From an uncultured virus (IMG/VR IMGVR_UViG_3300003320_000087) (Duplodnaviria > Heunggongvirae > Uroviricota > Caudoviricetes), in IMG/VR virus record IMGVR_UViG_3300003320_000087, positions 1 through 64,000 of that record: a stretch of 64,000 nucleotides of DNA, one strand, 5' to 3'. This document shows, in pieces, positions 1 through 6,027 of the stretch; position 1 is the first letter of the stretch, and each line of letters begins with the position of its first letter. The notes under the pieces were generated by a model. It worked only from the letters and a program-made list of their open reading frames with translations, did not search any database and was not told where the DNA came from. The position numbers were made by a program, and so were the translations under genes.

Positions 1-1
1 A

Positions 2-403
2 ATGGACGCAATGACCGCAAAGGTTGCTCTCCGCATTCTCAAGAAATTGAAGCAGCGTGAGGCGGAATACTGGGAGGCTCGCCGCTATTGGTATGAAAGC
101 GGTGATGGACGTCCGTCCGATTGGCGAGTTGACCCGGAAACGGGTCGGCACTGGAATGCAGGCGGTAAGGGTTGGACCTATCCGGAATGCATTCATGGCA
201 CTTCCCGTTGGACGGATTATGACAACATTTGTGGCGGGTGCGAGGATGGATATTCCATCTATCAACTCGCCATTTGGGAGGCCCAAGAAAAGGTCGCTCA
301 ATTCAAGGAACGTGCCGAATGGGTTGGGGCAATGCCTAGTTCCTTTAGGCACACGGAAATGTATCATGACGTGCTCGATTGGGTTTTCGAGACCGTCCGG
401 TAA
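2..403 (+). CDS. hypothetical early protein (Cys/His-containing)
   Basis: 133-aa ORF with CIH and CGGC motifs, followed by an intergenic hairpin; start may lie upstream of the window. Confidence 0.7.
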   Translation: MDAMTAKVALRILKKLKQREAEYWEARRYWYESGDGRPSDWRVDPETGRHWNAGGKGWTYPECIHGTSRWTDYDNICGGCEDGYSIYQLAIWEAQEKVAQFKERAEWVGAMPSSFRHTEMYHDVLDWVFETVR

Positions 404-410
404 TTCCAAG

Positions 411-465
411 CTGTAGGGATTTGGGGGCGTTATCCGAAAGGATGACGTTCCCCATGTCCACACAG
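411..465 (+). other. long imperfect intergenic RNA hairpin with GAAA tetraloop (candidate processing site)
   Basis: CTGTAGGGATTTGGGGGCGTTATCC-GAAA-GGATGACGTTCCCCATGTCCACACAG; G-U pairs; ends at the SD of the next gene. Confidence 0.75.
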
Positions 466-477
466 AGGGGAAACGCA

Positions 478-951
478 ATGCAGCACTACAACCCGACCAA
501 ACCGCTTACGTTGGACAACTATGCTATTCAGGTTGACTATTACCTGAATGGTGAAAGCGGCGAAAAGTGCGCGCGGTTCGGTTCGGCAAAGGAATTTGCC
601 GAATGGATGGACTCATTCGACTACAGTTCGGGTGACATTACTGGCTGGACTGGCGACAGTGCGACCATGCAGGCGGTAAACAGTTACCGCAATGACAGGC
701 CATACCGCGCAATTCCGGAGTTCATCACGGAATTCAACACGAACGATGGTAGTTCGGAAATCGTTGGGGCAGACCAATTCCACAATTTGCGTCGCATGTT
801 TACCCGCGACCGCGATAACTACCGCGTTTACCGGCATTACGCCGATGACGCAAAGGTCTACTCGGTAATGTACGTCGGAAAGGGGGATGCCCGACTTTCT
901 TCCTACGTCTGGCATGTTCCTTTTGGAGCGGATGAAATTCCGATTTCCTGA
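478..951 (+). CDS. hypothetical early protein
   Basis: SD GAGGGG at 465-470, ATG 478 (MQHYNPTK) within ORF 379-951. Confidence 0.75.
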   Translation: MQHYNPTKPLTLDNYAIQVDYYLNGESGEKCARFGSAKEFAEWMDSFDYSSGDITGWTGDSATMQAVNSYRNDRPYRAIPEFITEFNTNDGSSEIVGADQFHNLRRMFTRDRDNYRVYRHYADDAKVYSVMYVGKGDARLSSYVWHVPFGADEIPIS

Positions 952-1031
952 AAAGGAACGTGCGAGAATGAAAGGGGGTGGTTTCCTTGCGACGTAGGCG
1001 CAAGCGCAAATTACCCGGGTAAAAACCCAAG

Positions 1032-1086
1032 CTAATTGATTTGGCCCCGGGCATTCTTCGGAATGTTCGGGGAGCATGTCCATTAG
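1032..1086 (+). other. long imperfect intergenic RNA hairpin with cUUCGg tetraloop
   Basis: CCCCGGGCATTC-TTCG-GAATGTTCGGGG core, closed by CTAAT/ATTAG. Confidence 0.75.
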
Positions 1087-1099
1087 AAGGGTGAAGCAA

Positions 1100-1513
1100 A
1101 TGGTGGATGAGTGGCATTACTATTCTGACCAATTCGATGCCCGCGAGACTGGGGAGCATGGTTGGCGGAAATCAAATGTGAAGCCACGGGAAAGCATCCT
1201 GCGTAGGGATTCAACACACCGCGCGGGAAGTCGTTGCGGAAAGCTGTGCGTTGACGGGCTGTGGCCTATTCCTAGGGAATTGACGAGTGTCAAGCCTCCC
1301 CAGGGTCCGGGCCCATTCGGATTCACTTCCAATGAATTCGCGTGTGCTTGGTATGTGACGCAAAACGGCCGGATTTTCAAGCTCATTCGCCACCACGGGA
1401 ACAATCACAATCTCGTGGTGGAAATTGCTTGGCAGATTCATCAGCCGTATTCATGGATTCCGAATTACCCCCGGACGCAAGTTTGGGATTGGGTCGGAGT
1501 TCAGAGCATCTAG
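1100..1513 (+). CDS. hypothetical early protein
   Basis: SD AAGGGTG, ATG 1100 (MVDEWHYY). Confidence 0.65.
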   Translation: MVDEWHYYSDQFDARETGEHGWRKSNVKPRESILRRDSTHRAGSRCGKLCVDGLWPIPRELTSVKPPQGPGPFGFTSNEFACAWYVTQNGRIFKLIRHHGNNHNLVVEIAWQIHQPYSWIPNYPRTQVWDWVGVQSI

Positions 1514-1601
1514 TGACATTTAGTGTGTCAGGGGACGCACAAGCCTTTCCGGTTGTGCTTTCCCCTAATGCATTGAAAGTCAATGCATGAAAGGGGTCAA
1601 A

Positions 1602-1781
1602 ATGCGTACCTGCACCGTGAACGGCCGGACGGGCATCATCACTGCACAGAACGGTAAGAGTGGCGTTCCCGCCACTCAGGTTTTCGTTCTGTTCGATGAC
1701 AACCGTCCGACCGAATCGGATGCTGCATGGTTCGACGTGTCCGCCGTTCTGCCCACGGGCATGGTGACTGTCACGTTCTGA
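1602..1781 (+). CDS. small hypothetical protein (SH3-like beta protein possible)
   Basis: SD GAAAGGGG, ATG 1602 (MRTCTVNG). Confidence 0.7.
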   Translation: MRTCTVNGRTGIITAQNGKSGVPATQVFVLFDDNRPTESDAAWFDVSAVLPTGMVTVTF

Positions 1782-1884
1782 GTGTCTGGGGACCGTTCTA
1801 AGCGACTCGGAACGGTCCCCCGGCCCGGTTGTCCAACCAAGCCACGAACGGCCGTTAGAACGGCACAGAGAGGTTTTTTGTACC

Positions 1885-2109
1885 ATGGCACGTACCAAGT
1901 GGGAAATCCTGACTGCCCGACTCGAAAAGGCACGGCAGGAAGTTGCCGAACTGGAAAGCATTATGCGGGGGATGGAAAACACCCCGGATAACGTTGCATG
2001 CTCCGGTTGCGGTGAACAGTTCCGAGTGAATGCCGATTTCGCGCGGCATTTCAAGATTCCGAATGAGCAATTGCTCAACACGGGATATTGCCCCAACAAT
2101 CCGCGATAG
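1885..2109 (+). CDS. small coiled-coil plus zinc-finger protein
   Basis: CSGC...H...C; SD AGAGAGG. Confidence 0.7.
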   Translation: MARTKWEILTARLEKARQEVAELESIMRGMENTPDNVACSGCGEQFRVNADFARHFKIPNEQLLNTGYCPNNPR

Positions 2110-2118
2110 GGGCGAGAA

Positions 2119-2364
2119 ATGGAAAACGCGGAAAACTGCAAGGATTGTCGGACTCCTATCACCTTTGCTTATCGCGAATGGTGGGATGAGAACGACGACA
2201 ATGCATGTCCCAAGGGTGGAACGCATTTCCCGTATTTCAAGACGGAACTTGCGCCTACTCCAGTTTTTTCGACTTCCGGGCCGATAGCGAAGAATCGCGA
2301 AAAGCGTTTTGTTCCGCTCCGGGCCCAAAGGGCACAGAGAAGGGGTTTGGTTACTGACGCTTAG
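2119..2364 (+). CDS. small zinc-binding hypothetical protein
   Basis: CKDC...C...H; SD AGGGG. Confidence 0.65.
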   Translation: MENAENCKDCRTPITFAYREWWDENDDNACPKGGTHFPYFKTELAPTPVFSTSGPIAKNREKRFVPLRAQRAQRRGLVTDA

Positions 2365-2440
2365 TTGTCTTGGGATTGCCATTCTTTCGGGAATGGCATT
2401 GCCCAAAATGTCTAAGGGTTAGGCATTAGAAGGGGCTGCA

Positions 2441-2773
2441 ATGCTTATTCAGATTCTCGACATTCTTTCTCGCCAGGTACCGGGACAGTCGGTTAAGAAT
2501 GCCCTTGAAACGGCGCGAGAGATTGAGTCTCTGGCTAGGGAGACTTCCCCTAAGTCTCCTGTTCGTTCGAATCACTCGGACGAGATTCCCCTTTCGGTCG
2601 ATATGATTCGCGCGACTGCATGGGCTGAGCGGGTTTTCAGTCCCGATGATTTGAGGAATTACAAGATTCGTGCAATCAAGGAAATCCGCACGAATTGGAA
2701 TTTGGGCCTTAAGCAGGCAAAGGACATTGCCGATAACGTTTACGGTTCGGCGCCTAGGTCCTATTGGGACTAG
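2441..2773 (+). CDS. hypothetical protein with ribosomal L7/L12 C-terminal-like motif
   Basis: KIRAIKEIRTNWNLGLKQAKDIAD resembles L7/L12 CTD KIxVIKxVRxxTGLGLKEAKDLVE. Confidence 0.7.
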   Translation: MLIQILDILSRQVPGQSVKNALETAREIESLARETSPKSPVRSNHSDEIPLSVDMIRATAWAERVFSPDDLRNYKIRAIKEIRTNWNLGLKQAKDIADNVYGSAPRSYWD

Positions 2774-2865
2774 CTCTCTGCGCTTTATGGTGGTGGCCAT
2801 TTCGGGCGGGTTTTGAAATGGCCATTCGCCAAATGCGTTAAGGGTTAACGCAGGAAAGGGAATCA

Positions 2866-3228
2866 ATGCGCACGGAAATGGTTCACCTCACCAATGCGTT
2901 TGTCCGTTACTGCGCTTCTGCTCGGAAGCTTGGTTACGACACTACGGATTGGGGACTTACGGTCGGTTCTAAGACCCAAGGGAACCCCTACAAGGTTGGG
3001 GTGAAGGGTGAATGCGGTAAGAGTCTTCCTGGCATGGGAGATGGAGATATCGGCCGGACCCGTGGCGAGGCTTACGACAGGTTGGTTACCGCCGCGAACG
3101 TGCTTGACGACGTGTGCAAGCATCTTTACGGATGTTCTGGAGACGGCTATGCGAGTGAAATGCCGCATGACACTTTCGTTCGGGAATCTCTGCACGTTTC
3201 CGGATTTCATCAGTACTGCAATAACTGA
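2866..3228 (+). CDS. hypothetical early protein
   Basis: SD GGAAAGGG; 120-aa ORF. Confidence 0.7.
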   Translation: MRTEMVHLTNAFVRYCASARKLGYDTTDWGLTVGSKTQGNPYKVGVKGECGKSLPGMGDGDIGRTRGEAYDRLVTAANVLDDVCKHLYGCSGDGYASEMPHDTFVRESLHVSGFHQYCNN

Positions 3229-3247
3229 ATAGAAAGGAAAAGACATC

Positions 3248-3439
3248 ATGCGAATTCAGCCGCGCCAAAGTGTTCAGACTACTTGGAATCGAGCTATCAA
3301 CGATTCGTTTTTCCGGTTTGAGCATTACGTTATTCCGGGCAAGGAATCCGCCACTTACGTTTATCGGCGGGTTTTCGATTCGTGGACTCCCGATGGACGT
3401 TGGGAGCTGGAAAAGCTCATTCGGCTCTATGCTGAATAG
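3248..3439 (+). CDS. hypothetical early protein
   Basis: SD GAAAGGA; 63 aa. Confidence 0.7.
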   Translation: MRIQPRQSVQTTWNRAINDSFFRFEHYVIPGKESATYVYRRVFDSWTPDGRWELEKLIRLYAE

Positions 3440-3508
3440 CTGAATGTCCGGGGCACAATGTGTCCCGTGGCATTGTCTATTCAGAGTGAGTAGGCAGGAA
3501 AGGGCATC

Positions 3509-3589
3509 ATGCGGAAGATTCTTGGTGACATTGCGCTTACGGTCGTTGTCTTTGTGGGCGTTACTGTTGCTTGGAATTGGCTTTTCTGA
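3509..3589 (+). CDS. 26-aa single-TM micro-protein (not in ORF track)
   Basis: SD GGAAAGGG, MRKILGDIALTVVVFVGVTVAWNWLF*. Confidence 0.65.
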   Translation: MRKILGDIALTVVVFVGVTVAWNWLF

Positions 3590-3653
3590 GTAGCTGAATG
3601 CGGCGGGTATGCCTTTATGGATATCCGCTCGCATTGTCTACTTAGGAGGAGCA

Positions 3654-3809
3654 ATGCGGGAAGTTGCCAGTATCTATCTTTCCAGCAATGGAAAGGAATT
3701 CCTGATTTATGACAGAAACGAGCAATTGGTTTCTGTCAAGGCAATTGGCGACCTTGCCAATTTGGGAGAGACGGTTGTCAATACTGTCTCGGAAGCTATT
3801 GAGGAGTAG
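3654..3809 (+). CDS. small hypothetical protein
   Basis: SD AGGAGG, ATG 3654 (MREVASIY). Confidence 0.7.
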   Translation: MREVASIYLSSNGKEFLIYDRNEQLVSVKAIGDLANLGETVVNTVSEAIEE

Positions 3810-3811
3810 AA

Positions 3812-4150
3812 ATGCCCTACGGAACGATTTCGCCGGAAGTCAAGAATTTCGTCGAAATGCGTGCAAGACAGGGGAACGTTTTCGGGCGCTTCGAACTTGA
3901 GCCGCAAACGTGTGAATTTCCCGATGACTGCGAAAAGTCGGAAAACTGCATCTGCTTTGTTCCGGGTCTTTCGCGAATCTCCATTATCGTCGAAGGTGCC
4001 CTAGACGAAGAATTCGAAATTCGCGGCGGCGGCTTTGAGGTCAACATTGCCGACTGGATTTCAGAATTCATGTTCTGTGAGAACGTCGGCAATTACTGGA
4101 TTATGGTTTCCGACAGTGAGGGAAACCTGACTTACTCGGTAGAGGGTTAG
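3812..4150 (+). CDS. acidic hypothetical protein
   Basis: SD GAGGAG; 112 aa. Confidence 0.75.
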   Translation: MPYGTISPEVKNFVEMRARQGNVFGRFELEPQTCEFPDDCEKSENCICFVPGLSRISIIVEGALDEEFEIRGGGFEVNIADWISEFMFCENVGNYWIMVSDSEGNLTYSVEG

Positions 4151-4250
4151 GCAGTAGATTGGTACATAGCTTGCTACAAAAAGGGGCTGTGTGCCTTTCT
4201 AGGGCCCCGGACAATCGAGCCGGGGTCATTGCCTAGGGGAGGTCCTGAAA

Positions 4251-4613
4251 ATGGCTTACAGCGCAACTGAGTGCAAGGGTGACGGCATGGGCGACTACGG
4301 GCGTCCCTGCAACGGATACGCACGTACCGAATCGCCGTGTGCGGTATGCGTGGTGGCACACAAGCTCTATTCCACTGAAGAGAATTCGGCCGGGTTTGTG
4401 GAGGCAGAAACAGAAGACTTTTTCCCAGTAGACATCTATGTCACAATCAATACAGGAGAAGTAGTGAAGGTAGAAAGGGTAAGGGAAAGCAGTATCAAGG
4501 CAGAGATGCGAAGTGGTGTTTCTACACTGTCCTTTGAATTCTGGGACAACAAGAATCGGATTGGGTATGTTCCGTTTCTGATGTTCTACGCTACGGAATT
4601 CACTACGAACTAA
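4251..4613 (+). CDS. hypothetical protein with N-terminal Cys cluster
   Basis: SD GGGGAGG; 120 aa. Confidence 0.7.
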   Translation: MAYSATECKGDGMGDYGRPCNGYARTESPCAVCVVAHKLYSTEENSAGFVEAETEDFFPVDIYVTINTGEVVKVERVRESSIKAEMRSGVSTLSFEFWDNKNRIGYVPFLMFYATEFTTN

Positions 4614-4726
4614 CTTTTGGAAAGCACTAACTAAAAGTTAGTGTAAATGTAGGGTATTTGTGCGGCTATCTAGGCGCAATTAAGCCGCATTTCTGCCTGA
4701 ATTCGGGCAAAAACAAGGGAAAAAGC

Positions 4727-4813
4727 ATGTATTCGCTTGCATTTCTTGCAATTACGGCCCTTTTCCTGATTGCCGCCTACTTTGCCGGGGTATTGCCGGG
4801 CGGTATTCAGTAG
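4727..4813 (+). CDS. 28-aa single-TM micro-protein (not in ORF track)
   Basis: SD AAGGGA, MYSLAFLAITALFLIAAYFAGVLPGGIQ*. Confidence 0.6.
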   Translation: MYSLAFLAITALFLIAAYFAGVLPGGIQ

Positions 4814-4833
4814 ATACAGAAAGGTAAATACAC

Positions 4834-5121
4834 ATGCCTATTGCTATTCAGTATATGGATAGGCCCAATTCTCCTAATGGTGCATACTATGGGGGGTATT
4901 GTGTGAATGATGGTAGCAATACCGTATTCATAGAAACCCGGGCTGCAAATAATCTCTTGCCTGTATATGCATGGCTAGGTAATGGAGATAGGGCTATTGG
5001 CAGGGAGGTCTATAAGACAGCTCTAGTTATGCCTAGCGTTACTCTCAATGCCAAGCAGTACAATACCTTGGTATGTTCTATTCCTACTCATGAGCAGAGG
5101 GCATATAGCAAAGGAGATTGA
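4834..5121 (+). CDS. hypothetical protein
   Basis: SD GAAAGGT; 95 aa. Confidence 0.7.
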   Translation: MPIAIQYMDRPNSPNGAYYGGYCVNDGSNTVFIETRAANNLLPVYAWLGNGDRAIGREVYKTALVMPSVTLNAKQYNTLVCSIPTHEQRAYSKGD

Positions 5122-5299
5122 GACAGAAATTCCCCCGAATTCTCCTGAAATCAATAGGGGAAAGGCAATTGCAGCTAGTTCTATAACTGTAGTTGTGGGA
5201 AGTGGCTTTTCTGCCTTGGTCATCATTGCAGTCTCGTTTATCCTGGTCACAATTCTTTGTGTCCTATGGGGCGTAGGGATTGCTATTTCGGCAGTATAG
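5090..5299 (+). CDS. possible membrane protein (start uncertain)
   Basis: long hydrophobic C-terminus in ORF 5048-5299. Confidence 0.4.
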   Translation: MSRGHIAKEIETEIPPNSPEINRGKAIAASSITVVVGSGFSALVIIAVSFILVTILCVLWGVGIAISAV

Positions 5300-5523
5300 G
5301 AATTCTTTAGTGGGACCCCCGAGATAATTTCAAATGGGTCCCCCGAATTCTTTTTGAATTCAATATGCATTTGCTTTTATGGGCGCACTAATTGCAAGTG
5401 CGAATTCTATTTGCCGGCCTATATCATACATCTACAAAATTTTTTAACATTTTGAATCTGGAAATTAGGTTACTTTGAGTTGATTGTAGCTAACTGAGAG
5501 TAATGGTCTGTAAACATAGAAAA

Positions 5524-5550
5524 TCCCCACACCCTTTTTGGGTGTGGGGA
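5524..5550 (-). terminator. intrinsic terminator closing the leftward block
   Basis: TCCCCACACC-CTTTTTG-GGTGTGGGGA; T-rich tail on the minus strand. Confidence 0.75.
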
Positions 5551-5556
5551 AGTCTT

Positions 5557-5706
5557 TCATGAATAAATCTGTGCATGCTTCTTACACATCATTCTCAAAA
5601 CGCCTCTGAAGAAAACTTTTTGAAATGGTTTATTTTGACATCTTGCCATGAAGCATTTGTTGTCGTTTCCTGACCTGTCTTCTCTCTTTGGTCCGCTATG
5701 TCCCAT
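5557..5706 (-). CDS. 49-aa C3H zinc-finger micro-protein
   Basis: MGHSGPK...KCFMARC...MCKKHAQIYS*; SD AAGGA. Confidence 0.6.
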   Translation of the reverse strand: MGHSGPKREDRSGNDNKCFMARCQNKPFQKVFFRGVLRMMCKKHAQIYS

Positions 5707-5824: not shown

Positions 5825-6027
5825 TCTTCCTCCATAGAAAATGCGGGATTAGGGGTAAAGGTCAATCCCTTCTCATGCATATCCGCCAATTGTGTAGCCT
5901 TAACAGGGTCATGTACAGACAACAAAGCAAGGTTGATATCATACAGTCTCATAAGCATAATCAAGAGTACTGTTTGAAAATTTTCCGGGTCAAAAGCGAA
6001 GCCCGGCTGGATTTCTTCCTCACTCAT
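5821..6027 (-). CDS. hypothetical protein
   Basis: 68 aa, ATGA-coupled on both sides. Confidence 0.7.
   Translation of the reverse strand: MSEEEIQPGFAFDPENFQTVLLIMLMRLYDINLALLSVHDPVKATQLADMHEKGLTFTPNPAFSMEEE

What the first reader, a model, noticed from the sequence alone, without database searches (positions are those of the whole stretch)
1514..3497. Overlapping two-hairpin RNA switch repeated in front of early genes: possible cut-and-refold 5' mRNA cap
Seen: four intergenic spacers share one architecture despite mostly different sequences. A long imperfect hairpin (1514-1582, 2361-2415, 2771-2847, 3432-3484) has a 3' arm that can instead form a short 8-11 bp hairpin with an A-RRG-U purine triloop: ATGCATTGA-AAG-TCAATGCAT (1568-1588), AATGTCTAA-GGG-TTAGGCATT (2407-2427), TGCGTTAA-GGG-TTAACGCA (2834-2852) and TTGTCTATTCA-GAG-TGAGTAGGCAG (3473-3497). 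Each short hairpin is followed at once by a GAA(A)GGG SD and begins within about 2 nt of the internal loop or mismatch of the long stem. A looser overlapping pair occurs at 4611-4644. G-U pairs point to RNA on the + strand. Known: T7 and SP82/SPO1 early transcripts are cut by host RNase III at internal loops of intergenic stems. Inference: a single cut would let the downstream mRNA refold into a 5'-terminal protective stem with an exposed SD. Alternatively it is a ribosome-driven switch, since the long stems overlap or abut the upstream stop codon. I do not know of a description of this double architecture.
Basis: partly seen in the sequence, partly recalled or inferred. Interest (0 to 1): 0.82.

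Follow-up and report, generated by a model that had tools for sequence, protein, structure and literature searches.

The report
Phage mRNA cut-and-refold spacers
Between the small genes at one end of this Streptomyces phage genome, the messenger RNA folds into long stems shaped like cutting sites of the host enzyme RNase III, and in many of them the piece freed by a cut can fold into its own small protective hairpin, a stronger version of a trick already known from Bacillus phages.

Summary
Observation confirmed. The window begins a 129.9-kb Streptomyces phage of the Loccivirinae. The four spacers are 4 of the 5 strongest long stems before 158 SD+start sites in the genome. In 14 genomes, 39 of 40 comparable unique spacers with room before the SD carry the overlapping hairpin (shuffle null 23%), and the shared arm co-varies with both partners. 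A second class (18 spacers) has the same long stem, no cap, and buries the SD. Best reading (0.6): host RNase III nicks the 3' arm; the upstream RNA keeps a 3' stem, the downstream RNA refolds into a 5' hairpin. No cut was observed; no RNA run was listed. The design is not new: SPO1 sites fold the same way in miniature (4 of 6), and S. aureus cspA is a proven cut-and-refold case (PMC3386247). The triloop is not defining (17 of 39), 'early' is unproven, and 4611-4644 is a different element beside the terminal repeat. The scan noted the same design before in another phage (e1-5965441). New variant of a known kind.

The parts
1514..1582 (+). S1 long stem (precursor fold): GC-rich upper helix, C-A mismatch, G-U-rich lower helix
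   Evidence: covariation in 11 related spacers
1568..1588 (+). S1 short hairpin; predicted new 5' end at 1567
   Evidence: cut position inferred
1589..1595 (+). SD of ORF 1602-1781
   Evidence: sequence
1514..1530 (+). optional mirror hairpin of the 5' arm (-4.9 kcal/mol)
   Evidence: present in 21 of 39 relatives, null 29%
2354..2423 (+). S2 long stem
2407..2427 (+). S2 short hairpin; predicted 5' end at 2407; SD 2429-2434; ORF 2441-2773
2771..2847 (+). S3 long stem
2834..2852 (+). S3 short hairpin; predicted 5' end at 2832; SD 2854-2859; ORF 2866-3228
3432..3484 (+). S4 long stem, T7-like geometry: AAUG/CAUU helix above a 3x2 internal loop
3473..3497 (+). S4 short hairpin; 5' end either 3477 (7-bp hairpin) or about 3472 (11-bp); SD 3498-3503; ORF 3509-3589
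404..471 (+). class B long stem without second hairpin; base pairs with the SD of ORF 478-951
1026..1092 (+). class B long stem, about 80 nt from the upstream stop; SD of ORF 1100-1513 at its base
3585..3648 (+). class B long stem S5, paralog of S4, SD inside the stem base; ORF 3654-3809
2..5121 (+). tail of the rightward operon of small, mostly unannotated ORFs at the genome's right end
4624..4643 (.). not part of the family: perfect 9-bp inverted repeat about 17 nt left of the terminal-repeat start (about 4660)

Best explanation
The spacers are host RNase III processing sites that cut a long phage transcript into mono- or oligocistronic mRNAs. Steps: (1) SHOWN by folding and covariation: the nascent RNA can form a long irregular stem, and its lower 3' arm has a second, downstream partner. 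(2) INFERRED: RNase III nicks the 3' arm once at the junction of upper and lower helix (predicted new 5' ends 1567, 2407, 2832, 3477 or about 3472). In S1-S3 the favourable proximal-box letters (N-A-W-G) follow the cut on the 3' arm while the 5' arm offers G-C pairs that disfavour a cut; in S4 an internal loop limits the cut, as in T7. (3) COMPUTED: the upstream product ends in the upper stem, the downstream product folds a 7-11 bp hairpin with 0-2 free 5' nucleotides. (4) INFERRED: these ends slow PNPase and RNase J/E, and the hairpin also helps the nicked product leave the lower helix by strand displacement. In class B spacers the same cut instead frees an SD buried in the stem base.
For: 39 of 40 comparable unique spacers with room have the second hairpin, shuffle null 23% (five other-type elements set aside), in 14 sequence clusters. 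Alignment A1, 11 spacers: long fold 94% paired, 10 of 22 pairs with two-sided change; short fold 89% paired, 2 of 9 pairs with two-sided change; 0 of 500 shuffles reach either covariation score; columns 60-61 change together with both partners. Same three-way change in S4 versus TunaTartare. AU(G/C) in the junction window in 46 of 57, null 35%. Junction 13-17 nt from the loop in 28 of 37, above the 11-bp minimum; proximal box W,A,W,G; internal loops limit cleavage to one bond and leave protective 3' hairpins (PMC1540722). [quoted passage not shown] S. coelicolor RNase III cuts at an internal loop of an intergenic hairpin and its RNase J prefers 5'-monophosphate ends (PMC10126417). Mirror control: the 5' arm has a hairpin in only 21 of 39, null 29%. 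SD more open after the cut in 18 of 18 class B. No phage RNase III or dsRBD match.
Against: No cleavage or RNA data. The two folds are near-equal in energy (within 3 kcal/mol in 20 of 37; long fold better in only 9 of 37), so the uncut RNA may often lack the lower helix; for S4 the short fold is 81% without any cut. Proximal-box pairs 1 and 2 in the lower helix are G-U wobbles in 10 of 11, not the Watson-Crick pairs E. coli prefers. The rules come from E. coli; S. coelicolor cut its rpsO-pnp hairpin mainly on the 5' side of the loop. One third of sites have no cap, and one S4-type stem occurs with and without it. Relatives are related, so counts are not independent; the junction anchor was chosen by pattern. 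SD after the cut is only 0.34-0.81 unpaired in the four sites.
Confidence: 0.6

Rival explanations
1. Translation-gated site: a ribosome ending at the upstream stop opens the lower helix, the short hairpin snaps shut, and this decides whether RNase III cuts (blocked, or kept cleavable through coaxial stacking of upper stem and short hairpin).
For: Lower helix lies within 12 nt of the stop in 35 of 39. Masking 10 nt past the stop moves the short fold from 0.22, 0.01, 0.06, 0.81 to 1.00, 0.91, 1.00, 1.00. The short hairpin has Watson-Crick U-A and G-C where the lower helix has wobbles. Coaxially stacked helices can be cleaved (PMC1540722).
Against: 3 of 39 lie 50-91 nt from the annotated stop with the full architecture; class B is as close to stops (14 of 18), so closeness may be mere compaction. 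The SD is not buried in most class A precursors.
Confidence: 0.17
2. The stems are RNase III sites, but the second hairpin serves only to release the nicked product or to keep the SD free, with no effect on decay.
For: Class B works without it (18 spacers); hairpin ends 0-1 nt from the SD in 25 of 39; SD openness rises in many class A after the cut.
Against: Hairpin begins 0-3 nt after the junction in 35 of 37, as a 5' cap requires; 5' hairpins after RNase III cuts raise half-life in cspA.
Confidence: 0.12
3. Another nuclease or factor (host RNase E or J, or an unidentified phage protein) reads 'stem followed by AA(U)GC', akin to the hairpin+AAGCU elements elsewhere in the genome; or the stems are U-less terminators or pause sites.
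For: 46 of 193 plus-strand AAGCT follow a hairpin, against 1-8 for control 5-mers; junction letters look similar.
Against: Would not explain the conserved, co-varying lower helix. None of the four scores as a terminator and no plus-strand promoter-like site was found in 1-5700 (a sigma-70 scan, weak for Streptomyces).
Confidence: 0.08
4. DNA-level hairpins (hairpin promoters, recombination aids) or a by-product of duplication.
For: Spacers are modular and shuffled between genes.
Against: 109 of 844 class A precursor pairs are G-U; plus strand folds lower in 59 of 63. No single-subunit RNA polymerase match, though that search's control was silent.
Confidence: 0.03

Closest known systems
Bs-RNase III sites and 5' stabiliser of SP82/SPO1 early RNA
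   Same: Intergenic looped stems cut once on the downstream side (PMC1935012 passages). Six such stems in SPO1; 4 of 6 fold a 4-bp hairpin from the A after the loop with P at least 0.9, with compensating letters between sites. SP82 5' element stabilises mRNA (PMC11805744, PMC7509114 passages). That it needs a 5'-terminal stem-loop (Sharp and Bechhofer 2005) and that the cut is 5' of that A are recalled; the paper was not held.
   Different: Caps are 5-11 bp rather than 3-4 bp and usually abut the SD; sequences unrelated; SPO1 spacers mostly carry promoters; Streptomyces host; no cut mapped here.
T7 RNase III sites R0.3-R1.3
   Same: Upper helix, internal loop, lower helix, single 3' cut, 3' hairpin left on the upstream RNA (PMC8708148, PMC1540722 passages). 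The R1.1 fragment folds a -6.8 kcal/mol hairpin 1 nt after position 5887.
   Different: 3 of the other 4 T7 sites give no such hairpin and the fourth a weak irregular fold (their positions recalled). In S1-S3 the favourable box is below the cut.
S. aureus cspA 5' UTR
   Same: RNase III cleavage of a long stem lets the rest fold a smaller stable 5' hairpin; half-life from under 2.5 to over 16 min; better 30S binding (PMC3386247 passages).
   Different: Double cut in one host 5' UTR, not a repeated intergenic cassette in a polycistron.
S. coelicolor rpsO-pnp intergenic hairpin
   Same: Same host genus enzyme, intergenic stem, cut at an internal loop (PMC10126417 passages).
   Different: Cut on both sides, mainly 5'; destabilises the transcript.

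Membership tests
Phage RNase III processing site (T7/SP82 type) | Intergenic irregular stem of about two helical turns on the mRNA strand | tested here: met
   26-36 bp stems; covariation
Phage RNase III processing site (T7/SP82 type) | At least 11 bp between cut and apical loop | tested here: met
   junction 12-21 nt from loop in 35 of 37, (junction is inferred)
Phage RNase III processing site (T7/SP82 type) | Proximal box W,A,W,G next to the cut | tested here: inconclusive
   letters enriched (46 of 57 vs 35%) but paired as G-U wobbles in the lower helix; rule is from E. coli
Phage RNase III processing site (T7/SP82 type) | Distal box UA/UG | not tested
   not scored; not conserved across species per PMC3074117 passages
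Phage RNase III processing site (T7/SP82 type) | RNase III-dependent cleavage in vivo or in vitro | not testable with these tools
   needs experiment
Phage RNase III processing site (T7/SP82 type) | On an early polycistronic transcript | tested here: inconclusive
   co-oriented small ORFs at the genome end, no internal promoter-like site; timing unknown
5'-terminal stem-loop stabiliser (SP82, cspA type) | Hairpin with very few free nucleotides at the processed 5' end | tested here: met
   0-2 free nt at the four predicted ends; 0-3 in 35 of 37; depends on the inferred cut
5'-terminal stem-loop stabiliser (SP82, cspA type) | Raises mRNA half-life | not testable with these tools
   needs reporter assay
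Translational-coupling RNA switch | One fold buries the SD, the other frees it | tested here: not met
   class A SD mostly open in both folds; met only for class B, which has one fold
Intrinsic terminator | U-tract after the stem | tested here: not met
   purine SD follows; none of the four listed
Any Rfam family | Match to a curated model | tested here: not met
   2 matches at E up to 1, both far below gathering score

The most novel reading that the evidence does not exclude
The element is a three-state, translation-sensing RNase III cassette: lower helix and short hairpin are interchangeable halves of one site, so a ribosome terminating upstream flips the RNA into a coaxially stacked form that sets whether and when it is cut, and the same hairpin then ejects and caps the product. 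That would couple processing of each cistron to translation of the one before it.
Probability: 0.17. Interest if true: 0.75.

Novelty: new variant of a known kind. Interest (0 to 1): 0.5.

Why it matters
It predicts that a whole subfamily of lytic Streptomyces phages depends on host RNase III (AbsB) to punctuate its terminal operon, and gives base-level predicted ends to test. Nine literature searches listed no description for Streptomyces phages, but the library lacks most subscription papers. About 60 natural spacer variants would help define Streptomyces RNase III specificity, and a compact one-cut, two-protected-ends spacer could be a useful part for tuning polycistronic expression in Streptomyces. 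The principle itself is known.

Tried and rejected
RNA runs: no RNA holder listed for window 300-4700, so no reads were laid. Cluster BE phage Sushi23 terminal region: different spacers, no such family seen. DekoNeimoidia showed long stems mainly without a strong second hairpin; Byblos 2 of 3 with one. First pass of the hairpin search mis-called the SD inside hairpin loops and was redone. The 0 of 18 for class B is partly built in, as there is no room for a hairpin. Symmetric rod/cruciform model: only partly supported. A promoter pattern over contig 128,300 to window 5,300 gave no hit. Single-subunit polymerase search had a silent control. Proteins: 2 of 14 hit unknown-function PHROGs, 1 of 14 a sub-threshold L7/L12 C-terminal domain. 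Sharp and Bechhofer 2005 not held. PMC3997798, PMC4838370, PMC2358910 and bioRxiv 2023.03.12.532304 passages gave background only. No supplements were opened; Table S4 of PMC6212723 would allow a formal site score.

Full report
Context. The window is positions 1-64,000 of a 129,916-base virus contig. All 28 records matching 1000-4700 are Streptomyces phages, filed under Loccivirinae. The stretch matches their right end: a rightward run of small hypothetical genes that stops at the terminal repeat (777 bp in TunaTartare, mapping to about window 4660). The operon starts near the contig's end and continues into the window; a near-identical contig shows 79 more bases at that junction. That these are early genes is an inference.

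Observation. Every named hairpin folds as described, at z -3.4 to -4.4. Among 158 SD+start sites genome-wide, 15 had a long stem by my filter, 5 at or below -34 kcal/mol; four are the named elements. Six weaker stems also had a second hairpin and one real stem was missed, so the scan is rough. The 4611-4644 pair is a different thing: only its 9-bp perfect hairpin recurs, no SD follows, and it abuts the terminal repeat.

Relatives. I took 135 spacers of at least 50 nt from 14 genomes (this one and 13 of the fetched records); 97 had a long stem of -27 or better and 63 unique ones passed the SD and geometry filter. Of these, 45 leave at least 6 nt before the SD and 44 have an overlapping hairpin of -5 or better, against 23% of shuffles. 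Five of the 44 are other element types (four three-way junctions, one terminal) and were set aside with the single miss, leaving 39 of 40, in 14 clusters at 75% similarity, in BK1 and BK2 phages. The other 18 (class B) have the SD at the stem base and no room for a cap; a cut opens the SD in all 18 (0.00-0.57 to 0.57-0.88 unpaired). One S4-type stem occurs with the cap in two phages and without it in a third: the long stem is the core, the hairpin an add-on. Loops vary (A-RRG-U in 17 of 39).

Both folds are under selection. In 11 aligned S1-type spacers the long fold is 94% paired with 10 of 22 pairs changed on both sides, the short fold 89% paired with 2 of 9; no shuffle of 500 reaches either score and slid controls fall to 16-53% paired. 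Columns 60 and 61 change together with both partners. The tool warns that relatedness inflates such tests, and the structure came from one of the sequences. G-U pairs are 109 of 844 and the plus strand folds lower in 59 of 63. A mirror hairpin on the 5' arm is found in only 21 of 39 (null 29%), so the design is asymmetric toward the downstream product.

Mechanism. The short hairpin starts 0-3 nt after a junction reading AAU(G/C) in 35 of 37 anchored cases, 13-17 nt from the apical loop in 28 of 37 (two anchors were plainly misplaced and are the two misses or outliers). The motif is enriched without anchoring (46 of 57 vs 35%). E. coli RNase III needs 11 bp to the loop, prefers W,A,W,G next to the cut, is inhibited by G-C at box positions 2 and 4, and cuts one bond at looped stems, leaving a 3' hairpin (PMC1540722 passages; PMC6212723 passages). 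Applied to S1-S3 this favours a 3'-arm cut and disfavours the G-rich 5' arm; S4 has the T7 layout. Predicted 5' ends 1567, 2407, 2832 and 3477 (or about 3472) give hairpins with 0-2 free nucleotides and an upstream product ending in the upper stem. Streptomyces has RNase III that cuts at an intergenic internal loop and RNase J that prefers monophosphate ends (PMC10126417 passages); the phage shows no RNase III or dsRBD match. Against: nothing here observes a cut; the lower-helix box pairs are wobbles in 10 of 11; the folds are within 3 kcal/mol in 20 of 37 and the long fold is better in only 9; S4 is 81% short fold uncut; the SD is 0.34-0.81 unpaired after the cut when coding sequence is included.

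Ribosome gating. A ribosome at the upstream stop would flip all four to the short fold (0.91-1.00), and 35 of 39 lower helices lie within 12 nt of a stop; but 3 lie 50-91 nt away and class B is as close (14 of 18). It may modulate processing; it is not why the architecture exists. Because stacked helices can be RNase III substrates and the short hairpin has the better box pairs, the flipped form may itself be cut. This is the boldest reading left open (0.17).

Known systems. Six SPO1 stems of the SP82 type were found by motif; 4 of 6 fold a 4-bp hairpin from the A after the loop (P at least 0.9). [quoted passage not shown] Its need for a 5' stem-loop and the exact cut are recalled, the paper was not held. 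T7 R1.1 also yields a -6.8 hairpin 1 nt after 5887, the other four sites do not (position from PMC8708148 passages). S. aureus cspA is a tested cut-and-refold stabiliser (PMC3386247 passages). Of all 13 papers I saw only searched passages, no supplements. No Rfam family matches. The scan earlier noted the same design in another phage; I could not see that DNA and it is not support.

Verdict. Real, conserved, doubly co-varying RNA cassettes; they work like RNase III processing sites with a built-in 5' cap (0.6), membership unproven until cleavage is shown. New variant of a known kind; interest 0.5.

Noticed in passing
contig G000:C1 50,193-127,900 (first two at window 50193 and 51291): 46 of 193 plus-strand AAGCT follow a hairpin of -9 or better, against 7 of 215 on the minus strand and 1-8 for control 5-mers; already noted by the scan as e1-8103579.
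   Followed up: partly
window 1856-1898 and 4159-4201: 43-nt, 74% complementary pair: the SD/start region of ORF 1885 versus an arm of the 4149-4235 structure. It is the best partner in 4 BK1 relatives and in Byblos, where the two halves are swapped; both copies seen in several genomes. Long-range RNA pairing or an inverted DNA site.
   Followed up: partly
window 4149-4235: Conserved three-way-junction RNA (base stem plus two arms, A-rich loop) before ORF 4251, with many substitutions across BK1 phages.
   Followed up: partly
window 1790-1875: A further conserved spacer type: strong hairpin, then two small hairpins, before the ORF at 1885 (weak zinc-finger hit); recurs in BK1 and BK2.
   Followed up: no
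window 4624-4643: Perfect 9-bp inverted repeat about 17 nt left of the terminal-repeat start; in 6 named BK1 records, not matched in Gilsonvirus or BK2 loci; candidate genome-end or packaging signal.
   Followed up: partly
window 2441-2773: ORF with a ribosomal protein L7/L12 C-terminal-like stretch (PF00542, E 5e-5, below the cut-off).
   Followed up: no
window 961-1025: Conserved structured stretch with its own SD-like run and no annotated gene, found alone as a spacer in Gilsonviruses.
   Followed up: no
L010:5888-5909 (T7 R1.1): The R1.1 downstream fragment folds a 7-bp hairpin overlapping the phi1.1B promoter sequence; may be coincidence.
   Followed up: no
window 1-4000: G+C is 51-53% against about 44% in most of the window.
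   Followed up: no
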